From: Podarcis pityusensis
Lineage: Eukaryota
Length of the DNA: 64,000 bases
Reading direction: 5' to 3' (one strand)
Assembly (NCBI GenBank): GCA_964106645.2
Contig: OZ067041.1
Each line of letters begins with the position of its first letter. The stretch's first letter is position 1. A program made the position numbers. This document shows positions 26,901 through 31,449 of this stretch, piece after piece.

Positions 26901-29900
26901 GTTATATAATAGGCTCCTCTGCAATACTTCGCCATACCACAAACAAGAATCAGCTCTGGGAAACCTCAAGCCTACCACAAGAATTGTGGGGAGGGAAGAG
27001 ATGTGCTTATATGGGGCTTAGCTTCTGTCTTCAGCTCTATCTGAGCTTTCCTGTCTTGTTGCAATTGGCTCCATCGATTTCTATTTCACTTCATAATTTT
27101 CTGCATTTTTAGAATGCATTAAATATGGACTGGCCACCACCACATGTTAACTTTTGGGGTTTAGGTCTTGCCACATTGTGGCCATATACCATGGTACCAA
27201 AGCATTAGCTTAGTGTTTGTTTGACTGTAGCGCAATTGAAGCTGATGGAGTTAAGGATTTGTTACTTGATCTAATGGCAATAGCTTTCCAATAGACATGC
27301 ACGGAATCATTGATTAGTTTGTCCTCTCCTTGTTTGCATTGGGACGCTGTTCAATTTACACCAATTAAAGAATGCTTGGTTTGTGTATTGAAGAATAATT
27401 AAGGGACGGAATTCCCTATAGGCTGCTAAAAATGACATCTGACTGGAGTGGTGATTACAGCATGAAGGCAACATTAGTATTTAAATAGTTTGACTGCTAT
27501 ATAAAATCATTACAGCAGCTCACCATGAAAAAGAGCATTAGTTAATTTTGCCTATAACTGAATTATTTGTATGTATTTGCCTAGCCCATTTAAACAAATT
27601 TGACAAGGCTAATCTTAAAACAATTCCACAGTGATCGGTGTCAGATCCAGCTCAGAGCAACATTTGTAATAATTAGGAACATTTTTGCATACATATACAC
27701 ACAAAGACACACAGATTTGCCCAAACTAGAAATATTCATGGAAGACATAGCATGCTCAGATATGTGTTTAGCACAAACCCGGCATCCTTCTTGAAGGCAA
27801 AGTGACTATGTATTAAGCAATGGTGTAATAGGCATGCAAAATCTCCATGTGGAAGAACTGGGTTCAAATCCTACTCATATATAGCTTTGGAAGAATCTGT
27901 GATGATGAATTGGGAAAGGAATTCACTGTGACAAGCTGTAGACCACCAATTTAGAGAAGTTGAAAAGTGGGGCTAAAAAGTTTATGAATGAAAATCCTGT
28001 CAAAGGCTCCTGACCATGATGGCTATATATTGCTCTAGTGTTGCTCTTTGTTGTTTAGTCGTGTCCGACTCTTCATGACCCCATGGACCAGAGCACGCCA
28101 GGCACTCCTGTCTTCCACTGCCTCCCGCAGTTTGGTCAAACTCATGCTGGTAGCTTCGAGAACACTGTCCAACCATCTCATCCTCCGCCGTCCCCTTCTC
28201 CTTGTGCCCTCCATCTTTCCCAACATCAGGGTCTTTTCCAGGGAGTCTTCTCTTCTCATGAGGTGGCCAAAGTATTGGAGTCTCAGCTTCAGGATCTGTC
28301 CTTCCAGTGGGCACTCAGGGCTTTTTTCCTTAAGAATGGATAGGTTTGATCTTCTTGCAGTCCATGGGACTCTCAAGAGTCTCCTCCAGCACCAAAGCAT
28401 CAATTCTTCGGTGATCAGCCTTCTTTATGGTCCAGCTCTCACTTCCATACATCACTACTGGGAAAACTATAGCTTTAACTATTCGGACCTTTGTTGGCAA
28501 GGTGATGTCTCTGCTTTTTAAGATGCTGTCTAGGTTTGTCATTGCTTTTCTCCCAAGAAGCAGGGGTCTTTTAATTTCGTGACTGCTGTCACCATCTGCA
28601 GTGATCATGGAGCCCAAGAAAGTAAAATCTCTCACTGCTTCCATTTCTTCCCCTTCTATTTGCCAGGAGGTGATGGGACCAGTGGCCATGATCTTCGTGT
28701 TTTTTTTATTGTGTTACTCTAGAGTGTTACTCTAGTTGAATACTATTCACTGAAGAACAACAGGAGAGGGCTATTGCCCCTTGTGTCCTGCTTCAAGGCT
28801 TCCCACAAGCTCCTGGCTGGCCACTGTGGAATGAGATTGCCAGACTCAATAGGCCTCTGGTCTGATCTAGCTGGGGTCAGAAGTGGATTTAGGGGAACAC
28901 AACCTGTTCAGCCACACTGGGCACAGAGCCTCAGGGTCACTGCAGCGGACGCCACAACCATGATTTAGATTGGAGAGCAAGAGGCAGGGGTGCAGAATTT
29001 TGGCATCGCACAAGGCACCGCTGAAATTTGAGACCCCAAAGTTCCCCACTCCTGGGGTCATCTTATGATAACTCTGTATACACCACCCTGACATTCCTTG
29101 GAGGAAAGCGAAAGATGCAGACATAATAAAATAGTTAGGAGTCACAAGGCTCGCTCTGGCACCTGCTAATTTGCAAAGAATCGGCTCTGAAGCATGAGGC
29201 GTGATAGGAAACGATCACTGTGCATGTGCAGATATCCTCCTAGAGGAATGAGAGGTAGATGGATTCTCAAAAGTGCCTGAGTAGTTTCATACCCTCCAAC
29301 ATTTCTCCAATGAAAATAGGGGCTTCCTATTCCATAATAATAACAATTATTTTATTCTTTATACCTTGCCCATCTGACTGGGTTGCCCCAGCCACTCTGG
29401 GCAGCTTCCAACATCTATGAAAACATAATAAAACATTAAACATTAAAAACTTCCCTATATAGGGCTGCCTTCAGATGTCTTCTAAAGGTTGTATAGTTAC
29501 TTATCTCCTTGGCTAGGGGGTTGATTATTCCAACATTTCTCTGATGAAAATAGGGACGTCCTAAGGAAAAGCGTGGGACACGGGTGGCGCTGTGGGTTAA
29601 ACCACAGAGCCTAGGACTTGCCGATCAGAAGGTTGATGGTTTGAATCCCCGCGACAGGGTGAGCTCCCATTGCTCGGTCCCTGCTCCTGCCAACCTAGCA
29701 GTTCGAAACCACGAAGTGCAAGTAGATAAATAGGTACCACCCTGGCGGGAAGGTAAACTGCATTTCCGTGTGCTGCTCTGGTTCGCCAGAAGCGGCTTAG
29801 TCATGCTGGCCACATGACCCCAAAGCTGTACACCAGCTCCCTCGGCCAGTAAAGCGAGATGAGCGCCGCAACCCCAGAGTCGGCCACGACTGGACCTAAT

Positions 29901-31449
29901 GGTCAGGGGTCCCTTTACCTTTACTCAGACATGGTCAACTAACAAAGAGAAGAACTGGGATGTGTGAATGAGCCACATAAGATTCACCATTCTGTAAAAG
30001 TCTGTAAACAGTTGGCAATTTTTTTAATAAAAAAAAAGTTTTCTTCGCAAAGCAGAACAAAAAGAGATGGGGTGGGGAGAGCTACAGTCTTTCAGTCTCT
30101 GTGGTTTGACCCTTCAAATTCCACACATAATAAAAAAACCAAGGTGTTTTACTTGGTGCAGGAGGTGGAGGTGGCAAGGATATTTTAATAGCAATCTCTG
30201 CTTTTTGAAAAATCAAAAATCAGAAGGTGGGTAAACAGAATACTGAGATCGCTAATATATCTAGTGATATATATTTCAAGCCTCTATTGCTAGCCAATTT
30301 TTTGCATTTCAGTGAAAAAGAGCTTACCTAAGGTATTTACACCCTAGGGGTTTAAAAATTCCAAAATAAAAATATCACAGAATAAATAAAGCGAGATGAG
30401 CGCCGCAACCCCAGAGTCGGTCATGACTGGACCTAATGGTCAGGGGTCCCTTTACCTTTACCTAAGCGTGACATTCTGGGATCAACAAAGAAATCAGGAC
30501 AGTTTCTGTAAATCCAGGACTGTCCCTGGAAAACAGGGACATTTGTAGTTTACTGGTATTTAGTACTTCTGAGAATCTATTTGTCCTCCATTTCTTCATT
30601 GCATTTCTTCTTTTTTTGCCTCTCTGTACATCTGAATAACCACAAACAGTTCGCATATGTTTTGAGTTGTGAGGAAGGGTGTCAGGCAGTCTTGAGTCCC
30701 ACTGCATTTCATTTTTTAAAAAATAAAAAACCACCCTTCTAATTATGTTTTTTTGAAATGTTACCCAATACTTTTGAAATGTGTGATTCCCCCAGGCTGA
30801 ATGAACGCAGCCTGTCAGCCATGTAGAGTGGCCCTCCATTGGCTCAATCAGCCTCCTGTTTGTTCTTCCCAGCAGAAACAGACGGATTGCCGGGCCTGTG
30901 ACAGGCCCCAGTGCATGAGTGGTGGACTAAATTTAGCTTCGTGGGCCACAAATTGTGCAGGCCAGGTTTAAACAGGCAAGAAATTGAGGGTTTCCCATTT
31001 GCAGCCATTGCCTGAGACTCCTACTCCCAGCGGCCCACATTACAAAGCATCCCAAGAAGCAAACAGCAGGAGATTAGTATGTTGGCAGCCAAACAGTCTG
31101 GCAGCCTGATCTTATAAATTGGCTTTAGCTGTTGTAGCACAAACAGTAGTTCATCTTGCGCCACAGTTCTTGGCTCCAGCGCTGATGAACGGCCATTTGG
31201 ATGCTTCTTTATCCCCAACCCATCCTCTGTCCCTATCCTGTCCTAAAAGGGCCTTAATGATTGCAGCAACGCCTGTCATATTCTAGAGCCTGAGCTGCAA
31301 CAGAGGTCTCATACCTGTGCAAAGTGTTCAGGTAGTTTTCTACATTGGTATGAGGGTCTCTACATGCAACTGAGGGAGCTTTTGTGTGGAGTGCAAGGAA
31401 GTAAATGTACATTAGCAGCGGGAGGGGTAATAATAATAATAATAAAGCA

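What the first reader, a model, noticed from the sequence alone, without database searches (positions are those of the whole stretch)
29569..30470. Tripartite SINE-unique DNA-SINE tail composite inside one TSD
Seen: a full Sauria SINE (29576-29924), ~460 bp of AT-rich sequence matching nothing else in the window (29925-30384) and an 80-bp Sauria SINE 3' end (30385-30463). AAGCGTG flanks the whole unit (29569-29575, 30464-30470). The host DNA element resumes exactly after it, so the middle segment is foreign to this site. The second junction has AATAAA microhomology. Inference: this was one insertion event, either a double template switch by the Bov-B reverse transcriptase (SINE to cellular RNA to SINE) or transduction of a donor locus bracketed by two SINEs. 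T-runs in the middle argue against simple Pol III read-through. It would be a route for SINE-mediated shuffling of unique sequence.
Basis: partly seen in the sequence, partly recalled or inferred. Interest (0 to 1): 0.7.

Follow-up and report, generated by a model that had tools for sequence, protein, structure and literature searches.

The report
Composite SINE insertion carrying unique DNA
A short lizard-type mobile element, 460 bases of one-off DNA and a second copy of that element's tail lie together inside one small target duplication; this is most likely a copying accident of a kind already known from other retroelements, not a new mechanism.

Summary
The anatomy is real. A full Sauria-type SINE (29576-29924), 460 bp with no other match in the window (29925-30384) and a 79-bp SINE tail (30385-30463) are bracketed by AAGCGTG (29569-75, 30464-70). 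No part has a flanking repeat of its own. A 7-mer match in exact register occurs by chance at 1.3e-4 in this window. Two side claims are not shown. The only other copy of the host repeat has 684 bp where this copy has 11, and the AATAAA "microhomology" is simply the SINE's own sequence in 2 of 4 other tails aligned there. Six T-runs do argue against Pol III read-through. The origin of the middle segment could not be tested, because no eukaryotic genome or transcriptome was available. My best reading (about 0.4) is one retrotransposition event with two template switches, as in the tripartite chimeras of Magnaporthe and mouse (PMC2104539). The strongest rival (about 0.3) is two events, with the second inserting into the first SINE's terminal CTTTAC repeats, where its own duplication would be hidden. 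A copied donor locus, an unrecognised repeat family and mis-assembly also remain open. If the best reading holds, this is a new member of a known kind and of modest interest.

The parts
29569..29575 (.). 5' copy of the 7-bp target-site duplication AAGCGTG (the last G may belong to the SINE)
29576..29924 (+). Full-length Sauria-type SINE (SINE1). It ends in two CTTTAC units and lacks the final CT seen in other copies.
   Evidence: blastn to 5 other copies; alignment A1; B-box-like 11-mer with 1 mismatch at 29638
29925..30384 (.). Middle segment X, 460 bp, GC 0.35, unique in the window. It has six T-runs and ten A-runs of 4 or more, stops in all six frames, and an A-rich 16-nt 2.2-copy tandem at 30353-30386.
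   Evidence: no Pfam hit, no Rfam hit below E=1, no protein hit
30385..30463 (+). 5'-truncated SINE tail (tail2), the last 79 nt of the SINE, ending in 2.5 CCTTTA units directly against the duplication
30464..30470 (.). 3' copy of the target-site duplication AAGCGTG
29529..29563 (+). Left piece of the host interspersed repeat. It is related to 12767-12805 (minus strand) and duplicated at 29295-29329.
30475..30548 (+). Right piece of the host interspersed repeat, 78% identical to 12009-12082 (minus strand)

Best explanation
This is a chimeric retrocopy made in one target-primed reverse-transcription event by the Bov-B-type (RTE-clade) LINE machinery that mobilises Sauria SINEs.

Inferred steps:
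1. The endonuclease nicks the bottom strand at the start of AAGCGTG.
2. The reverse transcriptase starts on a SINE RNA at its terminal repeat and copies 79 nt.
3. It moves to a second RNA and copies about 460 nt (X).
4. It moves again to the 3' terminal repeat of another SINE RNA and copies it to its 5' end.
5. Second-strand nicking 7 nt downstream and repair leave one duplication around the whole unit.

A variant with the same outcome is that the three RNAs were joined before copying, as shown for U6/L1 (abstract of PMC6789731).

Shown: the three-part anatomy, the common orientation of the two SINE parts, the full-length 5' part, the truncated 3' part, and the single duplication. Inferred: every enzymatic step, and that X was an RNA.
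For: - There is one 7-bp direct repeat around the whole unit and none of 5 nt or more around any part. The chance rate is 1.3e-4.
- The unit meets the stated hallmarks of template-switch chimeras (Background of PMC2104539). The 5' part is a full-length copy, the 3' part is a 5'-truncated copy, the SINE parts share one orientation and the pieces are fused directly, and short direct repeats flank the whole.
- Tripartite chimeras with one duplication are documented: WEIRD/Mg-SINE/MGL with 14 bp, and mouse B2/U6/L1 with 15 and 16 bp.
- In Magnaporthe there was 1 tripartite chimera against 33 bipartite ones. A second switch after a first is therefore not rare, at about 3%. A random hit on the last 12 nt of a SINE would be about 5e-4, taking the anole figures of 78,442 copies in 1,799 Mb.
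- tail2 ends in the SINE-type CCTTTA repeat. It does not end in the (CGA)n or (CAA)n of squamate Bov-B LINEs, so the priming template was a SINE RNA.
- The two tails differ at 3 of 77 positions. At two of these, tail2 carries the state of other copies, which fits two separate SINE RNAs.
- Six T-runs in X, together with the unit starting exactly at the SINE's first base, argue against one long read-through transcript.
Against: - Nothing shows that X was ever an RNA or exists elsewhere. No genome or transcriptome could be searched.
- A two-step history explains the same sequence. It also accounts neatly for SINE1 lacking the final CT that tail2 retains.
- The duplication starts with A, and the 20 nt upstream contain no TTT. 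Sauria SINE duplications typically start with T about 10 nt after TTT.
- Entry of the second switch at the canonical SINE 3' end needs an extra assumption: that the enzyme re-initiates specifically on the tail repeat.
- The odds quoted come from L1-type and fungal LINEs, not from RTE-clade elements.
- This is one locus in one assembly with no read support.
Confidence: 0.4

Rival explanations
1. Two successive insertions. SINE1 inserted first and created AAGCGTG. Later a second Bov-B-type event, whose template was X followed by a 79-nt SINE tail, nicked inside SINE1's terminal CTTTAC repeats. Its own duplication of up to 12 nt is part of the repeated tail and so cannot be seen.
For: - SINE1 stops after two CTTTAC units without the final CT, while tail2 has the same two units plus CT against AAGCGTG. 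This is what a staggered cut inside the repeat would leave.
- A hidden duplication of 12 nt would lie at the mode for RTE-clade elements, 10-12 bp.
- The SINE-tail/flank junction has TTT at -5 to -7 and -11 to -13, T at -1 and A at +1. This is close to the Tn-TA cleavage signature described for Bov-B. The original empty site shows none of it.
- The terminal repeat would pair perfectly with the incoming RNA's own repeat.
- SINE1 then needs no special explanation.
Against: - It still needs the unusual X-plus-tail template, so one non-canonical step remains.
- Landing within the last ~12 nt of a SINE is about 5e-4 by chance (figures).
- PMC13295347 states that Bov-B copies are rarely flanked by targets resembling their 3' repeats.
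- None of the 5 other SINE copies in the window has a second insertion in its tail.
- The hidden duplication is an assumption that cannot be checked.
Confidence: 0.3
2. Copy of a donor locus in which a full SINE and a 5'-truncated SINE tail already lay 460 bp apart. The copy was made either as one read-through RNA (transduction) or at the DNA level, by repair synthesis or gene conversion into a simple SINE resident at this site.
For: - The unit ends in the tail that the reverse transcriptase needs.
- SINE density is high, with 5 further copies in 64 kb, so such donor arrangements must exist.
- The three tail differences fit two independent old insertions at a donor.
Against: - Six T-runs, including T7, T6 and T5, should stop Pol III (the termination rule is recalled general knowledge).
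- A Pol II transcript would not be expected to start or be truncated exactly at the SINE's first base.
- No second copy of X lies in the window.
- The DNA-level route needs a rare ectopic event.
Confidence: 0.12
3. X plus tail2 is not unique DNA. It is a 5'-truncated Bov-B LINE or a copy of an uncharacterised non-autonomous element that shares the SINE's tail, so the unit is only two repeats side by side, joined by one switch or by tail-targeted insertion.
For: - The Sauria SINE tail is derived from Bov-B, and most Bov-B copies are shorter than 1 kb.
- Bipartite non-autonomous RTE elements consisting of a 5' part plus about 70 bp of 3' end are known.
- A family with few copies would not be expected to recur in 64 kb.
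Against: - tail2 ends in the SINE-type repeat, not in (CGA)n or (CAA)n.
- RTE-clade LINEs have very short 3' UTRs, and their truncated copies are mostly RT coding sequence (passages of PMC2887409). X has 5 to 11 stops in every frame, its longest open frame has no Pfam hit, and that frame found no longer protein at E<=0.01 (weak evidence).
- X does not begin with the C-stretch reported for full-length reptilian Bov-B.
Confidence: 0.1
4. Assembly artefact: a false path through repeated SINE-tail sequence stitched a foreign segment into a simple SINE insertion.
For: The 75-77-nt repeated tail is the kind of sequence that confuses assemblers. There is no read evidence here.
Against: - Two false joins would be needed, both in register.
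- The tails differ at 3 positions.
- The nearest gap (8235-8550) is far away.
Confidence: 0.05

Closest known systems
Tripartite chimeric retroelements from double template switching (Magnaporthe WEIRD/Mg-SINE/MGL; mouse B2/U6/L1; PMC2104539: abstract, Background and tripartite section read)
   Same: Three retro-copied pieces are fused head to tail in one orientation. The 5' piece is full length, the 3' piece is 5'-truncated, and one short direct repeat surrounds the whole.
   Different: Here the priming piece is a 79-nt tail of a SINE recognised by a stringent RTE-clade LINE, not a LINE 3' end. The first and last pieces come from the same SINE family. The middle piece has no known identity as a transcript. 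The duplication is 7 bp, not 14-16 bp.
U6/L1 and other bipartite L1 chimeras (PMC2104539 Background; PMC6789731 abstract; PMC4476161 and bioRxiv 10.1101/2025.02.02.635956 seen as search listings only)
   Same: A complete small Pol III transcript copy is joined to a 5'-truncated retroelement inside one duplication.
   Different: Those have two parts and depend on L1 and poly(A). For U6, prior RNA ligation by RtcB has been shown, which depends on U6's special 3' end. No such end is known for SINE RNA.
3' transduction by L1 or SVA (recalled, no paper read here)
   Same: Non-element sequence is carried along in a retrotransposition event.
   Different: Transduced sequence lies downstream of the element and ends at a new poly(A) site. 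Here the extra DNA lies between two SINE pieces, and six Pol III stop signals lie in the way.
Composite and dimeric RTE-dependent SINEs and tail exchange (Bov-tA, WALLSI2 and others; passages of PMC5786205)
   Same: New combinations of SINE heads, bodies and RTE tails arise by recombination of templates.
   Different: Those are amplified families. This is a single copy that cannot be transcribed whole from its Pol III promoter.
Ordinary nested insertion, as in the same window at 43827-44649
   Same: A SINE is interrupted by about 465 bp of other sequence.
   Different: There the SINE is split once with no duplicated tail, and the insert is recognisable as a LINE 3' end with its own 8-mer repeat. 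Here the SINE is complete and its last 77 nt occur twice.

Membership tests
Sauria SINE | Ends in (ACCTTT)n-type repeat | tested here: met
   TRF finds 2.5 CCTTTA units at 30449-30463, 2.7 at 44635-44650 and 10.7 at 23623-23686. SINE1 has two CTTTAC units. The rule comes from Table 2 of PMC6007223.
Sauria SINE | About 350-bp interspersed unit, each copy with its own target duplication | tested here: met
   There are 5 further copies in the window. Duplications of 8 and 14 bp flank copies at 5087 and 43827, and about 8 bp at 23285. The unit length of about 350 bp as a family trait is recalled.
Sauria SINE | tRNA-related head with Pol III boxes | tested here: inconclusive
   Rfam gave no tRNA match at gathering score or at E<=10, and ARAGORN found 0 genes. 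A recalled 11-nt B-box pattern matches with 1 mismatch or fewer at the same place in 4 of 5 SINE heads. It is not enriched window-wide: 8 matches against 5.1 expected.
Sauria SINE | 3' tail shared with Bov-B LINE | not testable with these tools
   No Bov-B sequence is in the window (Pfam on 205 of 209 open frames found no RT or endonuclease domain) or reachable by the tools. The supplementary figure with the SINE/LINE tail alignment (PMC6007223) is closed.
Sauria SINE | Duplication starts with T about 10 nt after TTT (a tendency, not a rule) | tested here: not met
   The duplication starts with A, the base before it is A, and there is no TTT in the 20 nt upstream.
Template-switch chimeric retroelement (criteria in PMC2104539 Background) | 5' part is a full-length copy of an RNA | tested here: met
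   SINE1 covers positions 1/2 to 349 of the other copies.
Template-switch chimeric retroelement (criteria in PMC2104539 Background) | 3' part is a 5'-truncated copy | tested here: met
   tail2 is the last 79 nt only.
Template-switch chimeric retroelement (criteria in PMC2104539 Background) | Parts joined directly in the same transcriptional orientation | tested here: inconclusive
   Both SINE parts are on the + strand, and the junctions carry at most 1 and 4 ambiguous nt. The orientation of X is unknown.
Template-switch chimeric retroelement (criteria in PMC2104539 Background) | Flanked by short direct repeats | tested here: met
   AAGCGTG on both sides.
Template-switch chimeric retroelement (criteria in PMC2104539 Background) | Every part is a copy of a cellular or element transcript | not testable with these tools
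   No transcriptome or eukaryotic genome is available. X has no Rfam, Pfam or protein match.
Read-through transduction of a donor locus | One continuous transcript from the element's promoter through the carried DNA | tested here: not met
   There are six T-runs of 4-7 in the sense strand of X. That Pol III stops at such runs is recalled general knowledge.
Read-through transduction of a donor locus | Donor locus with the same sequence beside the source element | not testable with these tools
   Only the 64-kb window could be searched. No second copy of X lies in it.
Independent neighbouring insertions | Each element has its own flanking duplication | tested here: inconclusive
   No direct repeat of 5 nt or more flanks SINE1 alone, tail2 alone, X alone or X plus tail2. 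A duplication lying inside the repeated tail could not be seen.

The most novel reading that the evidence does not exclude
The Bov-B-type reverse transcriptase, having copied an unrelated RNA behind a SINE tail, can start again on the tail repeat of a second SINE RNA with the growing cDNA as primer. Arbitrary cellular RNA would then be packaged between SINE modules in one insertion. If this recurs, it would be a way in which squamate SINEs acquire new middle 'bodies' and scatter pieces of transcripts. It would also be the first such case for a LINE that recognises a specific 3' tail. I found no report of it for Bov-B or Sauria SINEs in searches.
Probability: 0.3. Interest if true: 0.5.

Novelty: new member of a known kind. 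Interest (0 to 1): 0.3.

Why it matters
If the single-event reading holds, template switching, so far documented for L1-type and fungal LINEs, also operates in an RTE-clade LINE/SINE pair that depends on a specific 3' tail. Such switching is one proposed source of the unexplained middle regions of SINEs. If the two-step reading holds, SINE tails are preferred landing sites for the same machinery, which would matter for how SINE clusters and tail microsatellites grow. Either way this copy is a dead end: its own T-runs prevent transcription of the whole unit from the SINE promoter. A single locus cannot show a general route for moving unique sequence.

Tried and rejected
- **Two unrelated insertions with a chance repeat.** Rejected. 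No part has its own repeat, and the chance of the outer 7-mer is 1.3e-4.
- **X as the internal part of the host repeat.** Rejected as far as the single other copy allows. There is no similarity to the 684 bp inside 12009-12805.
- **X as a cut-and-paste transposon inside a SINE.** Rejected. That would not duplicate 77 nt of tail. I noted no terminal inverted repeat of X among the 20 pairs, and there is no short repeat at its ends.
- **X as a structured RNA or tRNA-like element.** All 6 Rfam matches have E above 1, and ARAGORN found none.
- **X as coding sequence or the end of a LINE ORF.** Every frame has stops. The 81-aa open frame has no Pfam hit and found no longer protein at E<=0.01 (the tool itself calls this weak evidence). 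I did not run the 'near' or 'shorter' length classes or the other frames.
- **A 19-nt inverted match between X (30094-30112) and the SINE head.** It scores 24 bits, below the shuffle mean of 26.5, so it is noise. The 24-nt match of 30344-30367 to 29513-29536 (79%) does not extend either.
- **Tail RNA fold.** It is no more stable than shuffles (z -0.03). Only 2 of 17 predicted pairs show a two-sided change among 6 tails. I did not use it.
- **Pfam over open frames, to find a Bov-B remnant or the virus-like stretch.** I scanned 205 of 209 frames of 70 aa or more and found only three sub-threshold hits. Four frames of 100 aa or more were left out by oversight: 4294-4650 (+), 23414-23911 (-), 23574-23912 (+) and 23831-24151 (+).
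- **The paper that might give the SINE/LINE tail boundary (PMC1924541).** It is not held. Supplements that show the boundary are closed.
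Full report
**Material and limits.** Everything below rests on the window, on comparisons within it, and on papers. The species is not known to me. The repeats point to a squamate, and where I use green anole numbers I say so.

- Reading 29300-30800 shows AAGCGTG at 29569-29575 and again at 30464-30470.
- blastn of the parts against the window shows that 29576-29924 aligns end to end with other copies of one SINE: 23285-23635 at 90%, 43827-44060 plus 44526-44647 at 90-92%, 5087-5466 at 79%, and 4285-4630 on the minus strand at 79%.
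- 30385-30463 matches the last 75-79 nt of the same copies.
- 29925-30384 matches only itself. With lenient scoring its best non-self hit is 29.7 bits, against a mean of 26.5 and a maximum of 31.1 for 30 shuffles.
- The middle segment has GC 0.35, six T-runs of 4-7 and ten A-runs of 4 or more.

**Is the flanking repeat more than chance?** Among five flank pairings (the whole unit, SINE1 alone, X plus tail2, tail2 alone, X alone), only the whole unit has a direct repeat of 5 nt or more. Over 986,131 position pairs in this window, a 7-mer match in exact register occurs at 1.3e-4 and with +/-2 nt of slop at 2.1e-3. The last G of the repeat could equally be the first base of the SINE, because another copy begins with three Gs after its duplication. 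The duplication is therefore 6 or 7 bp. For 6-mers the rates are 3.8e-4 and 7.4e-3.

**Two side claims are not borne out.**
- *The host repeat.* It has one other copy in the window, at 12009-12805 on the minus strand. Similarity to that copy ends at 29563 and resumes at 30475. That copy has 684 bp between these points, whereas this one would have 11 bp once the composite and one repeat copy are discounted. The target site lies in sequence that cannot be aligned, so 'resumes exactly' is not shown. What can be said is that X resembles nothing inside the other copy. I could not confirm that the host repeat is a DNA transposon, and I saw no terminal inverted repeats.
- *The microhomology.* The AATAAA at 30385-30390 is the SINE's own sequence in 2 of the 4 other SINE tails aligned there. 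SINE1 itself has a G at the second position of that hexamer. Microhomology cannot be judged without the source of X.

**Is it a Sauria SINE?**
- The copies end in CCTTTA units: 2.5 in tail2, 2.7 at 44635, and 10.7 at 23623. This is the repeat given for the green anole Sauria SINE in Table 2 of PMC6007223 and in PMC13295347.
- The other copies carry their own duplications of 8 and 14 bp and about 8 bp. This is within the 7-15 bp quoted for RTE-clade elements.
- The tRNA-like head could not be confirmed by Rfam or ARAGORN. A recalled B-box pattern fits at the same place in 4 of 5 heads with 1 mismatch or fewer.
- The shared tail with Bov-B could not be tested.
- I accept the label on the terminal repeat, the unit length and the duplications.

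**What the unit is not.**
- It is not two independent insertions.
- It is not a nested insertion like the one at 43827-44649. There a SINE is split once, by a 465-bp piece ending in 5.8 copies of an 8-mer, and no tail is duplicated.
- It is unlikely to be a Pol III read-through transcript, given the six T-runs.
- A Pol II transcript would not be expected to begin exactly at the SINE's first base.

**Is X plus tail2 a truncated Bov-B LINE?** This is the most ordinary alternative, because the SINE tail is LINE-derived and most Bov-B copies are shorter than 1 kb. The evidence against it is as follows:
- tail2 ends in the SINE-type repeat, whereas the anole Bov-B ends in (CGA)n and other squamate Bov-B in (CAA)n.
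- RTE-clade LINEs have very short 3' UTRs, and their truncated copies consist mainly of RT coding sequence (passages of PMC2887409 on lepidopteran RTEs). X has several stops in all six frames.
- The 81-aa open frame in X has no Pfam match and found no longer protein at E<=0.01. The tool itself calls that weak evidence.

A bipartite non-autonomous derivative, made of a 5' part plus about 70 bp of 3' end as described in PMC5786205, is not excluded.

**Best explanation: one event, two template switches.** PMC2104539 lists the hallmarks of LINE-made chimeras: a full-length 5' part, a 5'-truncated 3' part, direct fusion in one orientation, and short flanking repeats. It also describes tripartite cases with a single duplication in Magnaporthe (14 bp) and mouse (15 and 16 bp). 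The unit here meets each hallmark that could be tested. In the fungus there was 1 tripartite chimera against 33 bipartite ones, so a second switch following a first happens at roughly 3%. Pre-ligation of RNAs, shown for U6/L1 (abstract of PMC6789731), would give the same product.

**Strongest rival: two events.**
- SINE1 ends after two CTTTAC units without the final CT. tail2 has the same two units plus CT next to AAGCGTG. If a second insertion had cut inside SINE1's terminal repeat with a stagger of up to 12 nt, this is exactly what would remain. Its duplication would be invisible, because it is part of the repeated tail.
- Twelve nt is the commonest length for RTE-clade duplications.
- The junction of a SINE tail with a flank starting in A has TTT at -5 to -7 and at -11 to -13, T at -1 and A at +1. 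This is close to the Tn-TA signature reported for Bov-B cleavage. The original empty site has none of this.
- Against it, a random hit on the last 12 nt of a SINE is about 5e-4, using 78,442 copies in 1,799 Mb.
- PMC13295347 notes that Bov-B copies are rarely flanked by targets resembling their 3' repeats.
- None of the 5 other SINE copies here has such a second insertion.
- The model still needs the unusual X-plus-tail template.

**How I weigh them.**

| Reading | Confidence |
|---|---|
| One event, two template switches | 0.4 |
| Two events, second insertion into SINE1's tail | 0.3 |
| Copy of a donor locus (RNA or DNA level) | 0.12 |
| Unrecognised repeat or LINE fragment | 0.1 |
| Mis-assembly | 0.05 |

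The two tails differ at 3 of 77 positions, and at two of them tail2 agrees with other copies. This fits separate source RNAs but has no power to separate the models.

**Comparison with what is known, and novelty.** In kind this is a chimeric retrocopy, and tripartite cases are already in print. The new element would be the machinery: an RTE-clade LINE with a tail-specific SINE partner. I found no report of this in searches. These searches cover open-access papers and preprints only, and the original Sauria SINE papers are not held. The unit cannot be transcribed whole from the SINE promoter, so it is a one-off. It shows at most that unique sequence can be carried once, not that this is a working route. 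I rate it a new member of a known kind, with interest 0.3.

**What stayed unchecked.**
- The genomic copy number and origin of X.
- The orthologous site in other species.
- Read support for the assembly.
- The position where Bov-B similarity begins in the SINE tail. The figures that show it are in closed supplements of PMC6007223 and PMC13295347, and PMC1924541 is not held.
- The virus-like stretch mentioned by the operators. I did not locate it. Pfam on 205 of 209 open frames gave only three sub-threshold hits, and I did nothing further with that question.

Noticed in passing
window 43827-44649: A Sauria-type SINE with a 14-bp target duplication is split at about its position 231 by a 465-bp insert (44061-44525). 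The insert ends in 5.8 copies of an 8-mer (44483-44528). It looks like a 5'-truncated CR1-type LINE 3' end, but that label is recalled and was not tested.
   Followed up: partly
window 29295-29329 and 29529-29563: A 35-nt direct repeat (89% identical) brackets a ~180-bp SINE-like element with an (AAT)n-type tail on the minus strand (29334-29511; related copy at 17739-17896, 74%). This is unusually long for a target duplication. The other copy of the host repeat has this motif only once.
   Followed up: partly
window 23623-23686: One SINE copy carries 10.7 CCTTTA units, against 2.5-2.7 in the others. The SINE tail appears to have grown into a microsatellite. Five extra bases lie between its 5' duplication and the SINE start.
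   Followed up: partly
window 28039-28414, 14142-14455, 63420-63803 (minus): Three copies of another interspersed repeat, 91-95% identical. Not identified.
   Followed up: no
window 12009-12805 (minus): The longer copy of the host repeat contains its own insertion of an (AAT)n-tailed SINE-like element (about 12500-12640). The repeat has direct, not inverted, similarity between its two ends, so its class is unclear.
   Followed up: no
window 58736-59077 (+), 42512-42931 (-), 63528-63872 (+): These are the only Pfam matches among 205 open frames, and all are below the curated cut-offs: zf-RVT (E 1.2e-3), Ferrochelatase (E 5.5e-3) and HHD_RTEL1 (E 9e-3). The first may mark a LINE remnant and the second possibly an exon.
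   Followed up: no
window 8235-8550: A run of N. Left untouched.
   Followed up: no
window 30353-30386: The last 34 nt of the middle segment form an A-rich 16-nt tandem of 2.2 copies that runs into the junction with the SINE tail. AATAAA occurs five times between 30026 and 30390, so a polyadenylation signal cannot be inferred from it.
   Followed up: partly
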